A stretch of 64,000 bases of DNA from Candidatus Poribacteria bacterium (GTDB lineage: Bacteria; Poribacteria; WGA-4E; WGA-3G): the NCBI GenBank assembly GCA_965200345.1, contig OZ241378.1:5434314-5498313 (forward strand). The letters run 5' to 3'. Shown piece by piece: positions 1,629 through 38,263 of this stretch (positions within the stretch are counted from its first letter, which is position 1; the number at the start of each line of letters is the position of its first letter). Under the pieces are notes generated by a model that made no database searches, was not told the DNA's origin, and was given only the letters and a program-made list of their open reading frames with translations. The position numbers and the translations under genes are program-made.

Positions 1629-2431
1629 CTCTTTTTTTAACTATAGCCCCATGGTCTAATTCAATAGGGCGGTTCTGTATCCCAAAGCTAAAGCATTGGG
1701 TTTTAGAACCGAAAACGTAGATAAGCCTGTTGTTCCTCAGCCGAGAGCGCATTGAGTTTATCTGCCACTTTATAATATCTCTGTTCGTAATTCCTCTTAA
1801 GTGTATTATGTTTCTCTACTATGCGTGCTAGTGAATTTTGTGTCTCACGCATCGAATCCTCGAGCCTGCGTATTTCAGTCTGAATTTCCTCCTTTTTCTG
1901 TTCGGTTTCTTCTTTTGATGATACTTCATCGTTTTGCTGGAATGTCTTCAAGTCGGAATCTTGTTGACCGAATTCTCCAGATGTGGTACTTGGATCTGAA
2001 GGTGAGATTGACACAGATTTTGGGGAGGGATACGTATCCGCCGTTTCTGTGCCTTTCTGAAAATTTGAATTACTAGGCGTGTCCCTTGAAGGCAAGGCTG
2101 AGGTATTACTAGGAGCATCCTCTTTGACAGGCTCCGTGACACGGTATATCTTAACGGGGTCCTCGTTTTTCCGCATTCCGTCACAACCAAAGTAACATAT
2201 CATGCCACTTATGATTGTAAAAAATAAAAATCTGGAACTAAGAGATAAAAATTTCCGCCATTTCTGTAACATGTTTTCCTTCTTTGTTTTGATGTGCGAA
2301 TTTGAGACGAACGTCCTTCTTTAGAAAAGAGAGACGTTCATCTAAAACAGATTAGAATACTAAGCACTGCAAGGATCGCGACAGTGTATAGGAAGTAGGT
2401 ATCTTTCATGCAATATCCCCCAAGGGGTGCC

Positions 2432-3169
2432 TTAATCGGGAAGTTGAACCCCATGTGTGCGGAGTAATTCTGACATCCGATTCTGTAATTTTTCGGCTTC
2501 CTCTGGGGACTCCGTCTCCGTGGATACTGTTGATAGTAAAAGCGCAGAAAATTCGCGTTGTGTTTCGGTAGGTAGTCCCTTCAACTGTTCCACGATGCGG
2601 GGCATTACCGTGTCGAAATAAATGTCTGTTTGACGACGTAGTTCTTCTTCCGGCATGCCATCTTCCAAGTCTAGCAAAAAATTATCCAGAAATTCTGTGG
2701 CGATACTCTGTCTAGCGAGTGCCCCAGGTATCATTTTTAGGAACCTTTCATTTTCTGCTACTATTCTCTCATACTCTTCTTGCCTTTTGAGTTTTCTCAA
2801 ACGTTCCTGCTCGTCTTGTTCGGAGGACATCTGTTGCGTTTCATCAGGTAAGTTGAGCGAATCACCATTTTCAACACCGGTAGCCGTTTTCTCTGAAGTT
2901 TTGTGGGATGATGCACCATCTGCTTCAACGAAAACGTCCCGATTGGTATCCAGATGAGTACCAGTAGGTGTTGCTGTCTCACCTTTTTCCGCTACCCCGG
3001 TGGCAGTTTTTTGGGTGGGTTGTACAGGTTTATATACTCGGATGGGATCGGCATTTAACCGAGGGCGGACATAGCCAAAGTACCATGTAGCAGCACCTAA
3101 GACAATAAAACATAGTCCGCCAATAATAGGAAAAGTCCACTTCTTTTGGGGTTTTTCTATCTTTAGCAT
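2432..3169 (-). CDS. Single-pass membrane protein with acidic/coiled-coil C-terminal region (divergent paralog of 5976..6734)
   Basis: Start moved to ATG 3169 (MLKIEKPQKKWTFPIIGGLCFIVLGAATWYF...), preceded by GGTGGAG. Shares the post-TM motif DPIRVYKPVQP with DPVKIYRVTEP in the paralogs. The track's upstream extension is a duplicated uORF/promoter region. Confidence 0.6.
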   Translation of the reverse strand: MLKIEKPQKKWTFPIIGGLCFIVLGAATWYFGYVRPRLNADPIRVYKPVQPTQKTATGVAEKGETATPTGTHLDTNRDVFVEADGASSHKTSEKTATGVENGDSLNLPDETQQMSSEQDEQERLRKLKRQEEYERIVAENERFLKMIPGALARQSIATEFLDNFLLDLEDGMPEEELRRQTDIYFDTVMPRIVEQLKGLPTETQREFSALLLSTVSTETESPEEAEKLQNRMSELLRTHGVQLPD

Positions 3170-3964: not shown

Positions 3965-5998
3965 TTATTGAAGGTGTAGAGCCTCGTCTATTTCTGGGAA
4001 GCCGGTTTCAAGGTATTTTGGATCGGTTTTGATGTCCGGTGGATAGTGAATTTCCCAGGCTTTTATTGGGGCATCGTCGAAATCTTTCTTTGGATAGACC
4101 GGTAGAAATGCGTCACTTAGATCCCGATGCAGAAAAGAACGGCTTGGGTCCTTTCCTGTGAGCATAATGTGTGTTGCGCCGTGGGTTTTTAGGTATTCTA
4201 ATACTTCGTTTTCGGAAGTGGCGTTGTGGACATGTTGGTTATAGAGAAGTATCCAGTTTTGGAGATAGGTGTCTTGGTCGATGATAGTTTTGACACCGCC
4301 AAGTACGTTGAGTTGACTGCCATAGCCCCAATGTGCGGCAACAATGGCGGTGTTGGGGAGCGTTGTCTTCATATAGTGTAATGCATTTGTCACGTCAGTT
4401 ATCGGCGTTGCTTTCCGCATGCGGGTTGCAGCGTAAATGGCGCGCGTGGCGTGTGCACCAAGAGGCGGAAAGAATAGGATCCCTGCCAGCAATAGACTCG
4501 CGATACAGGTTTTGAGTAGTCTCTGTTGTTTGCTTTGTTTGACTTTACGGGTCAGAGCATTGGAAAAGAGGTGTATGATTTCTGCGGTAAAGAAGGCGAG
4601 CGGCACGCCGATAAAGAAGTCGTAGCGTTTGGCATCCCGCGAAAGTGCAACCCAGAAAACAAACCATGCTGTAAAGGCGACAATCGTCATCAGACGCGGT
4701 TCGTTGGATTTTTGGAGCCATGCACTGATAAGAAATCCTATTCCTGTACAGATAATAGCAATGGCAAAGAAAAAAGTGCCGTAGGATGCGTTCCAGAGAT
4801 ATGTTTCAAGCGGTTCACGGAAAAAGGTGGTAGCGATGAAAAGGACGAGCGGGACGAGCAGATAGGACTGCTCCCACTGCAGTTGGCTGGCAACGATGAG
4901 CCCGAGACTCCCGAGCATAAAGACACCGCCGTATCTGAAAACCCAATACCCGAAATGTGGGTTTCGGAGTTCTGTCATCGCGGTCATCACTGCGTTTTGG
5001 CTCAGTGGGACGGTGGTATCCGCAAAGGTGTTTTGTTGTGTCCAGACATAGCCGAGGACAAGCGTAGCACTCACAAGTATCAACCCGAATGACACGGTGC
5101 GTGCGTATGGACGTAGGCGGCCTATTTTTGAGATGAGCAGATACCGAATTGCTCGCATTGCCAAAAGGACAATAGGCGGCAGTAACACAAACGCTGCGAG
5201 GTGTTCAGCGAAGCCGTAGCCATTTCTATATGCTGGTGAGGCGAGGTAAAGTGTCGGCACAAAGCAGCACACCCACAGCGCATAAAGACCTAATCCTTCC
5301 TCTGTTTCAGATGTCAAAAACCGCCACAGCTCCACAACGATGATGACGCTCAGGAACACGCCGAAGCCTTCCCAACTGATACCACCGAGAAAGACAGTAA
5401 AGCCACTGATGAGTGTCCAAATCAGGCGTTTTCGTGGTGTTTCCGCTTTGAGCGATACGAGATAAGTGACGACAGCAAGGATACCGAGCATCAGACAGAA
5501 TGCGTCTCGGTCGCCGAAGCCTGCGGTGGAACGTTCTATACTACCGGGCAGTGTAGCCAAAAGTATACCGATAACGCTTGAAAAGAGAAGTCCATAGGTG
5601 TGGTACAGATAAAGACAAAGCACACCGAGACCGATACAGAAGCATAAGACCGGCATGTAGAGACAGACGTGGTAAAGCGTGATATTCGGGGATACCCACG
5701 CGATGGCTTTGTGGATATAAGCGAGGGCGTAGCCGTAAAGGTTTAGGGTTTGTCCTAAATCTCTACCAACAGGCAGCCATCGGTTCATATCTCGGTCTGG
5801 TAACTCTCCGTGTTTAGAAATCAGAGAAGCCTGATAGTAGTAGAAGTATCCATCTGTCTCGGTGAACTGCCCTATGGGGAGGTGTTCAATCCCTTGAATA
5901 CGTATCCAGAAAGCAAGAAGTAGAAGGCTGCCTAAACCCAAAAGAAGGTAGATATTGCTTTGAAGTTCTGATTTCTCAAAACTTTGGTTCAAATCCAT
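3965..5998 (-). CDS. STT3/PglB/AglB-like GT-C oligosaccharyltransferase-family membrane protein
   Basis: 677 aa, about 13 predicted TM segments plus a C-terminal soluble domain. First loop TETDGYFYYYQA resembles PglB ISNDGYAFAEGA. GDRDAF (DxD) resembles PglB YDTDML. AAHWGYGSQLNVLGGVKTIIDQD (4319-4333 encodes HWGYG) resembles PglB [21 protein letters not shown]. Confidence 0.55.
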   Translation of the reverse strand: MDLNQSFEKSELQSNIYLLLGLGSLLLLAFWIRIQGIEHLPIGQFTETDGYFYYYQASLISKHGELPDRDMNRWLPVGRDLGQTLNLYGYALAYIHKAIAWVSPNITLYHVCLYMPVLCFCIGLGVLCLYLYHTYGLLFSSVIGILLATLPGSIERSTAGFGDRDAFCLMLGILAVVTYLVSLKAETPRKRLIWTLISGFTVFLGGISWEGFGVFLSVIIVVELWRFLTSETEEGLGLYALWVCCFVPTLYLASPAYRNGYGFAEHLAAFVLLPPIVLLAMRAIRYLLISKIGRLRPYARTVSFGLILVSATLVLGYVWTQQNTFADTTVPLSQNAVMTAMTELRNPHFGYWVFRYGGVFMLGSLGLIVASQLQWEQSYLLVPLVLFIATTFFREPLETYLWNASYGTFFFAIAIICTGIGFLISAWLQKSNEPRLMTIVAFTAWFVFWVALSRDAKRYDFFIGVPLAFFTAEIIHLFSNALTRKVKQSKQQRLLKTCIASLLLAGILFFPPLGAHATRAIYAATRMRKATPITDVTNALHYMKTTLPNTAIVAAHWGYGSQLNVLGGVKTIIDQDTYLQNWILLYNQHVHNATSENEVLEYLKTHGATHIMLTGKDPSRSFLHRDLSDAFLPVYPKKDFDDAPIKAWEIHYPPDIKTDPKYLETGFPEIDEALHLQ

Positions 5999-6734
5999 AC
6001 TCGCGAAGTTTCTCTATATGCTGCTTTACCCTCTCCTCATCAGTGGTTTCTTGTATAGTTTCTTCAATCTGATTGAGGATTACCTCCATTTGTGCAGAGT
6101 AGCCTTGAACCTCTGCTTCAGTCCTTACCTTTTCAAAAAACGTAGAATTGAGAAATTCCTTAGCATTCACCGTTTCACGTCGGTACTCTTCAAAGTAAGC
6201 GGATTGTTCTTCAACGGAAAGAGAATTGAGTTTCTTTGCCAACGCGTATTGGCGTTGATCATCTTTCTCTATCAGTCTATTGAGACGCCCAAATAGATCG
6301 TCTCTTTGTTGTTGAGTTTCACGTATTAAAGATTGTGCCTCCTCTATTGCCTCCTCTATTTTATGTGGGCGTTCTGATTTTACTCTTGCTGATTCTTCGT
6401 AGGTTTGTTTGGACGCGTCTGTGGTGGAGGGTTGCTGCGCGAATTTGCTTAGTGTCTCAGATGGATTCGCGTTTTTGGAACCTTCATCTTCAGATAGGCT
6501 TGGCACAGGCTTTTCGGAAATATCAACCTCTGCTGTTTCTGGAATTGCCTGATGTAAGAGGGATTCGGCAGAACCAGCAGTGTCTTTTTTAGCGGGTTCC
6601 GTGACACGATATATTTTCACGGGATCCTTGCTTTTCCGCCTGCTGTCAAAACTCAGATAACAGAGCCCACTGAAGACTATCAGGCATAAAATTCCCAGAC
6701 TCAAAACTATACGCTTCCATGATTTCCCGAACAT
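5976..6734 (-). CDS. Single-pass membrane protein with low-complexity linker and coiled-coil C-terminal domain (function unknown)
   Basis: 252 aa. TM at IVLSLGILCLIVFSGLCYL, then the DPVKIYRVTEP motif, an acidic/Ser-Thr linker and a heptad-like C-terminus. Its stop overlaps the STT3-like start by 23 nt (..GFEPKF* / MDLNQSF..), which suggests translational coupling. Confidence 0.6.
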   Translation of the reverse strand: MFGKSWKRIVLSLGILCLIVFSGLCYLSFDSRRKSKDPVKIYRVTEPAKKDTAGSAESLLHQAIPETAEVDISEKPVPSLSEDEGSKNANPSETLSKFAQQPSTTDASKQTYEESARVKSERPHKIEEAIEEAQSLIRETQQQRDDLFGRLNRLIEKDDQRQYALAKKLNSLSVEEQSAYFEEYRRETVNAKEFLNSTFFEKVRTEAEVQGYSAQMEVILNQIEETIQETTDEERVKQHIEKLREYGFEPKF

Positions 6735-20320: not shown

Positions 20321-20613
20321 TAGTATAGGACTTACGTAAATTGGACAGAAAATCGAGACCTATTTTGCTGAAAATGCCTTTTAGTGAGAATATTTGGTTG
20401 TATTAACCCTCTAAATCCCTTTATCAGGGAGACTGTAAGGGGGATGTATAAGTGCAAAAAAAGAAAAATTTTATCTTAACCTATTTTAACACATTTGGTA
20501 TACTTTTATCTATCAAGGAATTGCAGAGGTGCACGGTTGAAAGGGTTTTCGCACGACTGCAATGCCATTATTTAGACAAAACCTCTGAAATTAAAGCAAT
20601 GAAGGGGGCAAAT

Positions 20614-21378
20614 ATGTTAGGTGCAAGAAAGTTTTCGCCGATTCAACTTTTTACGCCAATTGCTATTTCTGTTTCGATCTTAATTTTTCTATCGGTTCTT
20701 CTTAGTTTTGGTGGGGAAATCCTTGATGACTTTGATGATGGCGATACAGAAGGCTGGGAACGCTCCCCACAGAACGAAGATAGCAAGGTCTTCTGGGGTA
20801 TAGAGAAAGGGAACACTTTCGTCACGTTTGATCCAAAGGGACTCGTGTGGAACGAGGCAATTTCCCAGTTCAATTTTACCGGCGAGGGGTTAAAGGTTGG
20901 TGACCCAAATAAATGGACAGACTATGACGTGGAGGTTGACTTGCGGCACCAAGAAATCGCTAACTTCCCGGGTGGTGTTCGTGGGCGCGTTGACCTTGAG
21001 ACAGGTTCACATTATGTTGTCTGGCTATATCCGGGGTCGGCAAAGATGAATCTGTTTAGCAATCCGGGTTGGGATATTAATACCGGCCTGCAAAACCATG
21101 GTGAAGCCCCTTATAAGCCAGAGGTGGATAAATGGCACACGGTCAAATTGAGTTTTTCAGGTACCACCATCAAGGTTTTCTATGACGGGGAAATGATGAT
21201 TGAAGCAAAGGATAATCAGTACAAAAGCGGAACGGTAGCACTGGGTAATCAGGACAAAATTGTGCATTACGATAACGTCCGCATCACGGGGCCCGATATT
21301 CCGAACTTAAATGCGAGTGCTGTCGAACCAGAAGATAAATTGACGATAACTTGGGGGCAGATAAAATCGTCTTTTTAG
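20614..21378 (+). CDS. Secreted LamG/DUF1080-like (concanavalin-type) protein with C-terminal VEPxxKLxTxWGxIK tail
   Basis: Start set at the ATG after AAGGGGG (MLGARKFSPIQLFTPIAISVSILIFLSVLL, a signal anchor). DDFDDGDTEGWE...W.DY...V....., W+.+.+...G..I.V+.DGE, YDNVRI. The upstream GTG-initiated extension in the track is unlikely. Confidence 0.55.
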   Translation: MLGARKFSPIQLFTPIAISVSILIFLSVLLSFGGEILDDFDDGDTEGWERSPQNEDSKVFWGIEKGNTFVTFDPKGLVWNEAISQFNFTGEGLKVGDPNKWTDYDVEVDLRHQEIANFPGGVRGRVDLETGSHYVVWLYPGSAKMNLFSNPGWDINTGLQNHGEAPYKPEVDKWHTVKLSFSGTTIKVFYDGEMMIEAKDNQYKSGTVALGNQDKIVHYDNVRITGPDIPNLNASAVEPEDKLTITWGQIKSSF

Positions 21379-27334: not shown

Positions 27335-27560
27335 GTGATAGCACCCACACGCTAAAGCGCGGGGCTTCGGCTTCGTAGCGACCGCGGTTTTCTCAAAGAG
27401 ACAACCGTCTGACTGTCGCTCCACCCGCAGGCATTTCCCCCATATCCTCAAAAAGATGGATATGAGGCATATCACGTTTAGGTCGTGGCTATCCCTGCCC
27501 GCAAAATGTTTAGCGCAGCGTTGATGTCGCGGTCGTGGTGAGAACCACATTCAGGACATA
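27335..27560 (-). ncRNA. Putative omega (reRNA) guide-RNA scaffold of TnpB
   Basis: In characterised TnpB systems the RNA spans the 3' end of tnpB to the right end. This interval has stems CATATCC/GGATATG (27441-27447/27458-27464) and the terminal hairpin 27344-27364. Extent not determinable from sequence alone. Confidence 0.35.
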
Positions 27561-28596
27561 TCCACTGCCTATCTGAAAGTGTTAGGGTTTCGTTATGAAA
27601 ACCGCAATCGCTACAAGGTTTCGTTGTAGCTGTCCATTGACCGACTTGACAGAAATCACGCTTATGTTTTTGACACTTATACTTCAATATCTCAACAAAC
27701 TCGTAGAAGGCGAGATCAGAAACCTTACGCCCCCACAAGCGTTTCATACCGTCAAGGTTCAATGTTTCAATAACGATTGTGTCAAACTTCTTACAGAGTT
27801 CAGAGGCAAGTTGCCAGTGAAAGTCTTTGCGTTGGTTGCTAATTTTCCGATAAAGACGGGCGATCTGTCTCACACACCGCCACCAACGGTTAGAACCTTT
27901 TTGTTTGCGGTTTAGGGCTTTGTTGAGTTTGCGAAGTTTCTCCAAGAACTGTTTCAAAGGTTGTGGGTGTTGTTTTTTCTCACCCGTGCTCAGTGTCAAA
28001 TATGCGTCTTTCATGCCGAAGTCTGCCCCAACACTTTGACCTATTGTCGGCAGCGGTCTAAAATCTCTATAGGTTGTTGTGATACAAAGCCAATAGTCTC
28101 CACAACTGTCGCGTTTGATGGTGATACGACTGATCCTCCCATGCCACTGGCGGTGCTTATGAAACGTATACGGCACTTTATCAAACTGCCACTTATGCGT
28201 ATGAGGATGCCATTTACGAAATGTCAATGTGATACGATTGTTCTTCAGAGACCACCCCGCGGTCCCCGGGTAGGTGATAGATTTGAACTTATGTCTCGGC
28301 TTGATATGCGGTCTACCGCCAAGTTTTTTCAAAAAACGATCGTAGGCCTTATGAATACGTTTCAGTTCTTGTTGGATGGCTTGGCTTGGCAAGGCCTTCC
28401 AATGCCGGTGTGTGGTGCGTTTCAATTCAGTCAAGTGGTCGCACATACCCTCAAAGTTCACATACGGCAACCCGTCTTTGTATCGCTGACGTTGCCACTT
28501 ATGGAAATACTCGTGCACTTGCCACATATCGTCAAGCAGGTTGCCAATGCGGATGGTGTTAGATTGTTTTCCCAACGGATATTTATAGGTTTTCAT
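27478..28596 (-). CDS. tnpB: TnpB (IS605 OrfB-type RNA-guided nuclease)
   Basis: 372 aa. SVGADFGMKD (RuvC-I D), TIVIETLNLDGMK (RuvC-II E), CSDCGFHNE..ICPECGSHHDRDINAALNI (CxxC..CxxC zinc ribbon plus RuvC-III D). Confidence 0.85.
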   Translation of the reverse strand: MKTYKYPLGKQSNTIRIGNLLDDMWQVHEYFHKWQRQRYKDGLPYVNFEGMCDHLTELKRTTHRHWKALPSQAIQQELKRIHKAYDRFLKKLGGRPHIKPRHKFKSITYPGTAGWSLKNNRITLTFRKWHPHTHKWQFDKVPYTFHKHRQWHGRISRITIKRDSCGDYWLCITTTYRDFRPLPTIGQSVGADFGMKDAYLTLSTGEKKQHPQPLKQFLEKLRKLNKALNRKQKGSNRWWRCVRQIARLYRKISNQRKDFHWQLASELCKKFDTIVIETLNLDGMKRLWGRKVSDLAFYEFVEILKYKCQKHKRDFCQVGQWTATTKPCSDCGFHNETLTLSDRQWICPECGSHHDRDINAALNILRAGIATT

Positions 28597-37401: not shown

Positions 37402-38070
37402 TTACTGAACTCGAACATCTGTTTTCAACTGTCCCCAGCGAGTTGTAAGTTTGCCATTTGGCTCAACTGCGAAGGAAGGGATGTCTGCTCCGTCAATGAC
37501 CAGATTATCAAAATGGACGTTTGCTTCGTACGTAATAAAGCCGATGCGTCCACTGTCACGGAATTTCGCATCATCGTCTCCCTCGAACAGAAGTTCATCA
37601 TTGACGAAACACTGATAATTTTGACCCTCTGCGACAACTTTAAGGCGATAGGTTTCGCCAACTTCTGGTTCAACAGGTAAAGGCGTTACAATGTGCTCAA
37701 ATTGATTCTCTCTCCATCGGGAGAATTGGCATTTATGCTGGTCTGTGCGAATCCAGTATCGCATGCCGTTGTCCCCGTCTGCATCAGCACGAATTAACAC
37801 ACCCGCCGCATTGACGTTCACGTTTTTCACCAACGTTACATCCACTTCAAGGGTGTAATCCGTCCAATTTTCATCGCCAAACATGGTCTTGGCGTACTGT
37901 CCACCGGAGGTTTCGGCGTAGGTATCCTTTACGATCTTCCATTCGCCTTTGACTGCGTTCCATCCGTCGGGAAGCCCTCTGTCAAAGTTTTCTTGCCATA
38001 TCCCTGCTGATACAATGGGAGTTAATATGGCAACCATAAATATAACAGTTACTACATTGGAATAACGCAT
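37402..38070 (-). CDS. Secreted LamG/DUF1080-like protein with C-terminal VEPxGKLxTxWGxLK tail
   Basis: Signal peptide MRYSNVVTVIFMVAILTPIVSAG. WQENFDRGLPDGWNAVKGEWKI.., NWTDYTLEVDV, GVLIRA, FDNLVI. Tail AVEPNGKLTTRWGQLKTDVRVQ. Confidence 0.6.
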   Translation of the reverse strand: MRYSNVVTVIFMVAILTPIVSAGIWQENFDRGLPDGWNAVKGEWKIVKDTYAETSGGQYAKTMFGDENWTDYTLEVDVTLVKNVNVNAAGVLIRADADGDNGMRYWIRTDQHKCQFSRWRENQFEHIVTPLPVEPEVGETYRLKVVAEGQNYQCFVNDELLFEGDDDAKFRDSGRIGFITYEANVHFDNLVIDGADIPSFAVEPNGKLTTRWGQLKTDVRVQ

Positions 38071-38263
38071 GGGTTCCTCCATTCTTTGATTCGTTGATAC
38101 GAGTTATTTGATGGCTGCCCGAATCATTATCAATTTGCTGTGACGGCATCACTTACTTAGCACGTGTTTGGAAGTGTTCGTTGGAAAGACAAATATCGAT
38201 TGATATCTTACCAAAGGAGCGGAAAAAAGTTCAAGGGAATTGTAATGGGAAGGTTGAAAAGGA

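What the first reader, a model, noticed from the sequence alone, without database searches (positions are those of the whole stretch)
37402..38082. Shared C-terminal tail VEPxGKLxTxWGxxK on five otherwise different secreted proteins: a candidate sorting tag
Five proteins end in the same short tail: AVEPNGKLTTRWGQLKTDVRVQ (37405-37470), AVEPEDKLTITWGQIKSSF (21319-21375), SVEAAGKFFTTWGSLKTK (58281-58334), PVEPARKLATQWAEVKRSY (59738-59794) and SVEPTGKLITKWGELKRAR (60916-60972). The first two are on LamG/DUF1080-type proteins, where GxDIP also precedes the tail. The other three are on the GPWLWMI repeat proteins. All five have N-terminal signal peptides. A conserved 15-residue motif within 1-7 residues of the C-terminus, on unrelated passenger domains, is the signature of C-terminal sorting or anchoring signals such as PEP-CTERM, LPXTG and T9SS CTDs. 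This one is far shorter than a T9SS CTD and has no hydrophobic helix. I do not recognise it as a named signal.
Basis: seen in the sequence. Interest (0 to 1): 0.7.

Follow-up and report, generated by a model that had tools for sequence, protein, structure and literature searches.

The report
Unnamed C-terminal sorting-like tail in Poribacteria
Many exported proteins of the uncultured bacterial phylum Poribacteria, most of them small and sugar-binding, end in the same roughly 20-residue peptide (…VEPxGKLxTTWGxIKxxx), which behaves like an address label that no database names and whose reading machinery is unknown.

Summary
All five window proteins end in [APS]VEPxxKLxTxWGx[LIV]K, 2-6 residues before the stop.

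The window comes from Candidatus Poribacteria.
- 111 are labelled Poribacteria.
- 7 are labelled 'uncultured bacterium'.
- 1 is a chance hit.

In these loci:
- 180 of 184 profile hits lie within 10 residues of a stop, most often 3.
- 103 of 104 full-length carriers have a signal-peptide-like N-terminus.
- The passengers fall into at least 17 unrelated families, including LamG, DUF1080, CBM9, NPCBM, discoidin, cohesin and beta-propellers.

The tail is as conserved as the folded domain. AlphaFold2 nevertheless leaves it detached and at low confidence. It has no transmembrane helix and no amphipathic moment. It matches no Pfam, NCBIfam or PDB entry.

Within the GPWLWMI-domain family, the same C-terminal slot holds this tail, a T9SS type-A CTD or a dockerin. 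T4-like phage contigs carry a LamG gene with a consensus tail.

My best reading is a new, phylum-restricted localisation or anchoring tag that acts after Sec export. Neither its function nor its receptor has been shown.

The parts
37402..37470 (-). Tail 1 with stop codon: AVEPNGKLTTRWGQLKTDVRVQ*
   Evidence: Translation. It lies outside the PF06439 match. AF2 pLDDT is below 30 for residues 200-222 of the 222-aa form, which starts at MRY. It is conserved in orthologues down to 47% identity.
37402..38070 (-). Protein 1: a 222-aa DUF1080 / 3-keto-disaccharide-hydrolase-like lectin-fold protein. The start is at MRYSNVV, as in the orthologues.
   Evidence: The exact protein is found on ENA contig ctg152332.
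38002..38070 (-). Predicted Sec signal peptide of protein 1 (MRYSNVVTVIFMVAILTPIVSAG)
   Evidence: Hydropathy heuristic. The sequence is conserved in the orthologues.
21319..21378 (+). Tail 2 with stop codon: AVEPEDKLTITWGQIKSSF*
20599..21378 (+). Protein 2: a DUF1080/LamG-like protein with an N-terminal hydrophobic segment. The start codon is uncertain; the ORF is open from 20452.
58278..58334 (-). Tail 3 with stop codon: SVEAAGKFFTTWGSLKTK* (a VEA and KF variant)
   Evidence: The tail profile scores it at 28.4 bits.
58278..59534 (-). Protein 3: two GPWLWMI-domain repeats. Only the last repeat is followed by the tail.
   Evidence: Representative P0138 has the same architecture and tail.
59735..59794 (-). 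Tail 4 with stop codon: PVEPARKLATQWAEVKRSY* (a WA variant)
   Evidence: The profile scores it at 29.2 bits.
59735..60436 (-). Protein 4: a signal peptide, a single GPWLWMI domain and the tail
   Evidence: The domain family has 1325 representative clusters.
60913..60972 (-). Tail 5 with stop codon: SVEPTGKLITKWGELKRAR*
60913..62214 (-). Protein 5: a signal peptide, two GPWLWMI-domain repeats and the tail

Best explanation
The tail is a linear C-terminal localisation tag specific to the phylum Poribacteria. Its consensus is [LTF][APS]-V-E-P-x-[GDN]-K-L-[ATS]-[TV]-T-W-G-x-[LI]-K, followed by about 3 variable polar or basic residues and the stop.

Proposed mechanism:
1. The carrier is exported across the inner membrane by Sec through its N-terminal signal peptide. 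This step is inferred from sequence.
2. The flexible tail, which does not pack on the passenger, is bound by a conserved envelope component that has not been identified. This could be a receptor, an outer-membrane translocon or a sortase-like enzyme.
3. That binding fixes the protein's final place, most likely display or retention on the cell surface, or export across the outer membrane.

The carriers are mostly small (about 220-300 aa), often lectin-like or otherwise non-catalytic proteins. The tail sits in the same architectural slot as T9SS type-A CTDs and dockerins on homologous passengers, but it is unrelated to both.

Shown here: the motif, its strict C-terminal position, its co-occurrence with signal-peptide-like N-termini, the diversity of passengers, protein-level selection, the phylum restriction and the module swapping. 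Inferred: recognition by a partner and an effect on localisation.
For: Position.
- 129 of 133 strict matches have the final K 1-8 residues from the stop. The mode is 3 residues (68 cases).
- 180 of 184 profile hits lie within 10 residues of a stop.

Export.
- 103 of 104 full-length carriers have an N-terminal hydrophobic segment.
- 1 of 107 has a lipobox.
- In the window, lipoproteins, an M23 peptidase and a cytochrome c lack the tail.

Portability across folds.
- Carriers form 17 BLAST clusters with at least 9 Pfam families.
- A family with no Pfam match has a ConA-like fold.

Independence from the passenger.
- AF2 pLDDT is below 30 and below 50 in the tail, while the domains score 80-97.

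Selection.
- In distant orthologues the tail core is 51% identical to the window protein, the domain 53% and the trailing residues 0%.
- Conserved residues use all synonymous codons, and the lineages span 37-63% GC.

Module swapping.
- Among the 150 best representatives of the GPWLWMI domain, 12 end in the tail (186-433 aa), 90 in a T9SS-like CTD (median 917 aa) and 10 in dockerin-like repeats.
- TIGR04183 and Dockerin_1 were confirmed on sampled members.

Other support.
- A protein with two cohesin domains carries the tail. By analogy, cellulosome scaffoldins carry cell-surface anchors.
- 118 of 119 genome stretches are from Poribacteria or unlabelled MAGs, and the one outsider is an internal chance hit.
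- T4-like phage contigs encode a LamG protein only about 24% identical to host LamGs but with a consensus tail 1-3 residues from the stop.
Against: - There is no experimental or direct computational evidence for localisation, cleavage or a binding partner.
- No gene family is consistently linked to tail genes. The neighbours are families that are simply abundant in the phylum: Gfo/Idh/MocA, PhyH, sulfatases and TPR proteins.
- In one low-GC lineage, many members of one family carry a conserved extension of about 32 aa after the motif. A free C-terminus close to the motif is therefore not strictly required.
- Signal peptides were judged by a hydropathy heuristic only.
Confidence: 0.55

Rival explanations
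1. The tail is a self-sufficient envelope anchor. It would bind a general envelope component (a membrane surface, LPS or peptidoglycan) directly, like the C-terminal amphipathic helices of PBP5/6 or MinD, with no dedicated machinery.
For: - It is short, sits at the extreme C-terminus, is flanked by two invariant lysines and has an invariant Trp, a typical interfacial residue.
- AF2 draws a low-confidence helix over KLSTIWGKVKISNSI in one family.
- Phage-borne copies would work in any host if the ligand were generic.
Against: - The helical hydrophobic moment of the 10-residue core is 0.29, the same as shuffled sequences (0.30 +/- 0.15). Mean hydrophobicity is about 0.
- No 15-residue window in the last 30 aa approaches transmembrane hydropathy; the mean maximum is 0.41.
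- Generic lipid anchors tolerate sequence drift. Here V, P, K, W, G and K are near-invariant across lineages of 37-63% GC, which points to recognition by a specific protein.
Confidence: 0.12
2. The tail is a protein-protein assembly or modification motif unrelated to sorting. Options include a strand or helix that docks lectin modules to each other or to a scaffold, a degron read by a periplasmic protease, or a site for a Lys/Trp modification.
For: - The invariant K...W...K spacing could be a modification or cross-link site.
- Tail genes are often in tandem arrays, with at least 2 tails in 51 of 112 sequence stretches with at least one tail (111 tiles plus the window).
- Cohesin and dockerin modules occur in the same protein families, so scaffold-type assemblies exist in the phylum.
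Against: - No modifying enzyme or protease gene recurs next to tail genes.
- The motif is absent from periplasmic housekeeping proteins and lipoproteins of the window.
- It replaces known sorting or anchoring modules, not oligomerisation modules, in homologues.
- Docking to a surface scaffold would itself be a form of anchoring, so part of this rival merges with the best explanation.
Confidence: 0.18
3. The tail is only the last beta-strand of a common C-terminal domain shared by descent, or a truncated T9SS CTD.
For: Many carriers are ConA-like jelly rolls: LamG, DUF1080 and the P0291 family. CTDs sit in the same position in homologues.
Against: - Carriers also include beta-propellers, cohesins, CBM9, NPCBM and discoidin domains.
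- The linkers before the tail are variable and unalignable.
- AF2 does not pack the tail on the domain.
- Internal GPWLWMI repeats lack it.
- hhalign of the tail profile against the Poribacteria-type CTD profile gives a probability of 0.24% over 2 columns.
- TIGR04183 and PF18962 do not hit the window proteins.
Confidence: 0.03
4. The motif is a chance resemblance or a repeated DNA element at gene 3' ends, not a selected peptide.
For: None beyond the shortness of the motif.
Against: - 0.00 matches are expected in window shuffles against 3 found.
- All synonymous codons are used at conserved residues. Third-position identity is 0.41 at identical amino acids, against 0.64 protein identity.
- The strict pattern hits only 2 of 2.9 million viral contigs, and both hits are genuine C-terminal tails.
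Confidence: 0.01

Closest known systems
T9SS type-A C-terminal domain (TIGR04183 / PF18962)
   Same: Both sit at the C-terminus of Sec-exported proteins with unrelated passengers. Both are abundant in each genome. In the GPWLWMI family the tail and the CTD occupy the same slot.
   Different: - The CTD is a folded Ig-like domain of about 70-100 aa; the tail is about 20 aa and unstructured.
- There is no HMM or profile-profile similarity.
- In the GPWLWMI family the CTD marks long multidomain proteins (median 917 aa) and the tail marks shorter ones (median about 414 aa there; about 264 aa over all carriers).
- T9SS genes were reported absent from Poribacteria single-cell genomes (PMC3909097).
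PEP-CTERM / exosortase and other tripartite signals (LPXTG, GlyGly-CTERM, MYXO-CTERM, PGF-CTERM)
   Same: All have a short signature motif near the C-terminus of signal-peptide-bearing proteins. 'VEP' superficially recalls 'PEP', and basic residues follow the motif.
   Different: Tripartite signals need a transmembrane helix after the motif. Here the maximum 15-residue hydropathy in the last 30 aa averages 0.41. No NCBIfam sorting-signal model hits, even at E up to 10.
Type I dockerin (PF00404)
   Same: Dockerin is a C-terminal module that attaches diverse passengers non-covalently to a partner. It alternates with the tail in the same protein family. One protein has a dockerin followed by a partial tail (P0228).
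   Different: A dockerin is about 60 aa, with duplicated Ca-binding loops and a known cohesin partner. The tail has neither, and gets no Pfam hit.
Linear secretion or targeting peptides (CsgA N22 for CsgG; BMC encapsulation peptides and encapsulin cargo-loading peptides)
   Same: These are short, flexible, portable peptides of about 20 residues, joined by a variable linker and read by a specific protein partner.
   Different: N22 is N-terminal. Encapsulation peptides act in the cytoplasm on cargo without a signal peptide and are amphipathic helices. The tail is on exported proteins and is not amphipathic.
C-terminal amphipathic membrane anchors (PBP5/PBP6, MinD MTS)
   Same: Both are short peptides at the extreme C-terminus, disordered until bound.
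   Different: The tail has no hydrophobic moment above shuffled controls. Its sequence conservation is far higher than is usual for lipid-binding helices.

Membership tests
T9SS type-A CTD (TIGR04183/PF18962) | HMM match to a C-terminal Ig-like domain of about 70-100 aa | tested here: not met
   The five window proteins get no hit, at E up to 1 in Pfam and up to 10 in NCBIfam. As positive controls, homologues P0141, P0151, P0216 and P0220 score 26-37 bits against a cutoff of 23. hhalign of the tail against the CTD gives a probability of 0.24%.
T9SS type-A CTD (TIGR04183/PF18962) | T9SS machinery (SprA, PorV, PorU, GldKLMN) present in the genome | not testable with these tools
   The only evidence is from the literature: not found in Poribacteria single-cell genomes (PMC3909097). 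Complete genomes could not be scanned here.
PEP-CTERM / exosortase and other tripartite sorting signals | Signature motif followed by a hydrophobic transmembrane helix and a basic cluster | tested here: not met
   The maximum 15-residue Kyte-Doolittle mean in the last 30 aa averages 0.41 and peaks at 1.47 over 134 tails. No NCBIfam hit.
Dockerin type I | Match to PF00404 with duplicated Ca-binding repeats | tested here: not met
   No hit in the window proteins. Dockerin_1 is detected in homologues P0196, P0216, P0228, P0259 and P0283.
Outer-membrane-protein beta-signal | C-terminal residue aromatic (usually Phe), with alternating hydrophobic residues in the last strand of a beta-barrel | tested here: not met
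   The last residue is variable (for 3-residue trailers: R 31, K 14, Y 11, Q 8, F 8). The passengers are soluble lectin or propeller folds.
Amphipathic C-terminal membrane anchor | High helical hydrophobic moment | tested here: not met
   The moment at 100 degrees is 0.29, against 0.30 +/- 0.15 for shuffles.
Generic 'C-terminal sorting signal' (operational definition) | Restricted to the C-terminus, found on signal-peptide proteins, on unrelated passengers, in many copies per genome, and limited to a lineage | tested here: met
   The window has 5 carriers among about 55 genes.
Generic 'C-terminal sorting signal' (operational definition) | A co-occurring processing or export gene, and a demonstrated effect on localisation | not testable with these tools
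   The neighbourhood analysis found no consistent partner. Phylogenetic profiling and experiments were not possible.

The most novel reading that the evidence does not exclude
Poribacteria have an undescribed protein-sorting pathway. A roughly 20-residue linear C-terminal signal, with no transmembrane helix and no folded domain, is read by a novel envelope machine. That machine moves or anchors a large share of the secretome, possibly a hundred or more small glycan-binding proteins per genome, to the cell surface. It works alongside T9SS-type CTDs in a phylum reported to lack T9SS, and phages exploit it.
Probability: 0.4. Interest if true: 0.85.

Novelty: new variant of a known kind. Interest (0 to 1): 0.68.

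Why it matters
C-terminal sorting signals such as LPXTG, PEP-CTERM and the T9SS CTD have each led to the discovery of a dedicated secretion or anchoring machine. This tail has the same genomic signature but a different build: it is short, polar and unstructured, with no membrane helix.

It marks a large and coherent set of exported, mostly small proteins, many of them lectin-like, in Poribacteria. This phylum is a dominant, uncultured group of sponge symbionts, and how its cells interact with the host's sugar-rich matrix is an open question.

The tail gives three practical things:
- a one-line rule for predicting the tagged secretome from metagenomes;
- a handle, in the form of a peptide bait or a phylogenetic profile, for finding the machinery;
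- a way to revisit the puzzle that Poribacteria carry T9SS-type CTDs although no T9SS genes were reported (PMC3909097).

The phage-encoded copies suggest the tag can move between genomes and still be useful.

Tried and rejected
- Tail profile against the 5.8-billion-protein index. With 47-aa C-terminal stretches the tool returned only 44-84-aa fragments, so nothing was learned about passenger diversity or taxonomy beyond 'Poribacteria'.
- PDB sequence search with the tail profile. It found only an internal chance match in yeast Ku70, E = 0.2.
- Literature. Four full-text searches, including literal motif strings, found no description of the tail. Kamke 2014 mentions only TIGR04183-like domains.
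- 'The tail is the last strand of the T9SS CTD'. A by-eye resemblance (GDFTATRKMLIRK against GKLATTWGxIKxxR) was tested with hhalign and rejected, at a probability of 0.24%.
- Amphipathic-helix anchor. Rejected on the hydrophobic moment.
- Partner gene by neighbourhood. All ORFs of 119 loci were clustered. The recurrent neighbours without tails are families abundant across the phylum. TPR proteins with signal peptides lie next to tail genes of several families, but they are heterogeneous and may be there by chance.
- Cluster look-up to name the CTD-bearing homologues. It returned no names. That CTD and tail coexist in one Poribacteria genome rests on locus L106.
- Per-genome count. This could not be measured. 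The only figures are biased: 5 tails in the 64-kb window, and at least 2 tails in 51 of 112 tail-containing stretches.

Full report
**Observation.** In all six frames of the window, W[GAS]x[LIVM]K occurs seven times. Five of these are the tails, each 2-6 residues before a stop. A degenerate DNA pattern for V-E-P-x2-K-L-x3-W-G-x-[LIV]-K matches three times against 0.00 expected from shuffles.

Pfam places proteins 1 and 2 in PF06439 (DUF1080 / 3-keto-disaccharide hydrolase, a ConA-like fold). In protein 1 the match covers residues 29-196 of the 226-aa ORF, so the tail lies outside it. Proteins 3-5 are built from one or two copies of an unnamed domain that begins GPWLWMI. In the two-copy proteins only the last copy is followed by the tail. 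No Pfam or NCBIfam model touches the tail, even at permissive thresholds.

**Origin.** Orthologues of protein 1 are annotated Candidatus Poribacteria. The exact protein lies on a 448-kb ENA metagenome contig. Orthologues down to 47% identity keep the tail.

**How widespread and how C-terminal.** One scan of 185,579 species-representative genomes with a slightly relaxed DNA pattern was expected to give about 25 chance hits over the whole collection (my estimate from information content). Of these, 111 are titled Poribacteria, 7 come from four MAGs titled only 'uncultured bacterium', and one is from Paenibacillus. The Paenibacillus hit is an internal match in a 44-codon ORF, so it is the chance hit.

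The 134 matches put the final lysine 1-8 residues from the stop in 129 of 133 scorable cases. The mode is sharp at 3 residues (68 cases). A profile built from the tails finds 184 hits of at least 10 bits in all ORFs of these loci plus the window, and 180 of them end within 10 residues of a stop. The profile also picks up variants that the pattern missed: VDP, VEA, WA, and a degenerate ...TLWGxLKQ form.

The lineages span 37-63% GC. Judging from their names, some MAGs come from outside sponges, for example the Caspian Sea and a coral. So the tail is a trait of the phylum, not of sponge association.

**Who carries it.** Of 104 full-length carriers, 103 start with a hydrophobic, signal-peptide-like segment. 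Only 1 of 107 has a lipobox. Lengths are narrow, with the 5th-95th percentile at 222-298 aa.

With the tail removed, the carriers fall into 17 BLAST-unrelated clusters. Their Pfam domains are Laminin_G_3, DUF1080, CBM9, NPCBM, F5/8 type C, DUF3108-like, two cohesins, and PD40 and BNR beta-propellers. Six clusters have no Pfam match. One further family without a Pfam match folds as a ConA-like lectin jelly roll.

In the window, 5 of about 14 proteins with a hydrophobic N-terminus have the tail. Two lipoproteins, an M23 peptidase and a cytochrome c do not. Tail genes often sit in tandem: at least 2 tails occur in 51 of 112 sequence stretches with at least one tail (111 tiles plus the window).

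**Nature of the peptide.** The logo is [LTF][APS]-V-E-P-x-[GDN]-K-L-[ATS]-[TV]-T-W-G-x-[LI]-K, then about three polar or basic residues.

Among orthologues of protein 1 at about 50% identity, the tail core is as conserved as the folded domain (0.51 against 0.53). The trailing residues are not conserved at all (0.00). Conserved residues use all synonymous codons, so selection acts on the peptide and not on a DNA element.

AlphaFold2 with family alignments gives confident lectin domains. It leaves the tail detached at pLDDT below 30 for protein 1. For the P0291 family the tail is below 50, with a low-confidence helix starting at K-L.

The core has no helical hydrophobic moment beyond shuffled controls, and nothing near the C-terminus approaches transmembrane hydropathy. 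The tail profile matches nothing meaningful in the PDB.

**Module swapping.** An exhaustive phmmer search with protein 4 finds 1325 representative clusters. Among the best 150:
- 12 end in the tail (186-433 aa);
- 90 end in ...NYPNPFNPETW...YWDGRN...ATRKMLIRK (median 917 aa);
- 10 end in dockerin-like repeats;
- 38 end otherwise or are truncated.

Sampled members confirm TIGR04183 above its cutoff and PF00404. A Poribacteria locus that holds tails also holds an ORF with such a CTD. Kamke et al. reported TIGR04183-like domains but no T9SS genes in Poribacteria single-cell genomes (PMC3909097). The tail is not a remnant of that CTD, since hhalign gives a probability of 0.24%.

So, in one homologous family, the C-terminal slot holds one of three alternatives: a known secretion and anchoring domain, a known docking module, or this tail.

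**Phages.** The strict pattern hits only two of 2.9 million IMG/VR contigs, and both hits are true C-terminal tails on LamG proteins. A shorter core pattern gives 18 loci. Twelve are internal chance hits. Six lie within 3 residues of a stop, and four of those six belong to one LamG family on contigs of 31-35% GC.

One of those contigs carries a T4-like replication module: DNA polymerase, clamp, clamp loader, UvsX, DnaB-like helicase, Hsp20 and a 2OG oxygenase. The phage LamG is only about 24% identical to Poribacteria LamGs, but its tail is the consensus.

**Interpretation.** The data fit a portable linear tag that a conserved protein partner reads after Sec export, and that decides where these mostly small, often lectin-like proteins end up. 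My leading guess is surface display or anchoring, for two reasons. The tail replaces dockerin and CTD modules, and a protein with two cohesin domains carries it, as anchoring scaffoldins carry surface anchors. Translocation across the outer membrane is equally compatible with the data.

None of this is shown directly. I found no partner gene. In one low-GC lineage, many members of one family have a conserved extension of about 32 residues (YPxGH[KR]GTRFE[KR]G...) after the motif. This argues against strict dependence on a nearby free C-terminus.

The rivals are listed with their tests: a generic lipid, LPS or peptidoglycan anchor; an assembly, degron or modification motif; a shared last strand; and chance. 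The last two are effectively excluded.

**Novelty and score.** No domain library, structure or paper I could search names this motif. The concept of a C-terminal sorting signal is known. This build, about 20 polar unstructured residues with no helix and no domain, is not known, and neither is its restriction to this phylum. I class it as a new variant of a known kind. There is a substantial chance that the machinery behind it is new. Interest: 0.68.

Noticed in passing
L122:12770-13696(+); also L123, L130 and L137 (IMG/VR contigs): Contigs filed as viral in IMG/VR (31-35% GC) encode a roughly 308-aa LamG protein with an N-terminal hydrophobic segment and a consensus tail (KVEPKLKLTTTWGEVKK*). 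One contig, L122, carries T4-like DNA polymerase, clamp loader, UvsX and helicase genes. The passenger is only about 24% identical to Poribacteria LamGs. This looks like a phage using its host's tag.
   Followed up: partly
L068:3552-6162 (three tandem genes); P0291-P0346: In a low-GC Poribacteria lineage, one ConA-like family splits in two. Some members end right after the tail. Others carry a conserved extension of about 32 aa after it (YPxGH[KR]GTRFE[KR]GL...). The role of the extension is unknown.
   Followed up: partly
window 58278-62214(-); P0138-P0287: The GPWLWMI domain is a large unnamed family, with 1325 representative clusters and only weak PA14/RhaB_D2-like hits. Most homologues are long multidomain proteins ending in a T9SS type-A CTD. 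Poribacteria were reported to lack T9SS genes (PMC3909097), which leaves an orphan-signal puzzle.
   Followed up: partly
L095 and L079 (tandem arrays): Arrays of PD40-like beta-propeller genes of about 340 aa end in degenerate tails that lack VEP and the first K (PQPQLLTTQWGEIKKE; xEKQxTLWGxLKQxExxxK). This suggests the minimal core is [TL]-x-W-G-x-[LI]-K.
   Followed up: no
L056 (520-aa protein); P0259; P0228: Cohesin and dockerin modules are mixed with the tail. One protein has two cohesins plus the tail. Another has cohesin, dockerin and a GPWLWMI domain. A third has a dockerin followed by a partial tail (KKITTWGALKHK). These hint at cellulosome-like surface assemblies in Poribacteria.
   Followed up: no
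L088, L089, L109, L015, L006, L108, L022 and others: TPR-repeat proteins with signal peptides lie next to tail genes of several different passenger families. They are heterogeneous, and TPR proteins are abundant in the phylum, so this may be chance. TPR domains do bind extended peptides, so they are worth including in a receptor screen.
   Followed up: partly
window 27478-28596(-): An IS605 OrfB/TnpB (Cas12f1-like TNB) gene, seen in the precomputed Pfam annotation of the matching contig.
   Followed up: no
window 1703-2272, 2432-3169 and 5976-6734 (all -): Three paralogous small proteins, each with an N-terminal membrane segment followed by a shared '...DP[VI][KR][IV]YRV' motif. No tail. Function unknown.
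   Followed up: no
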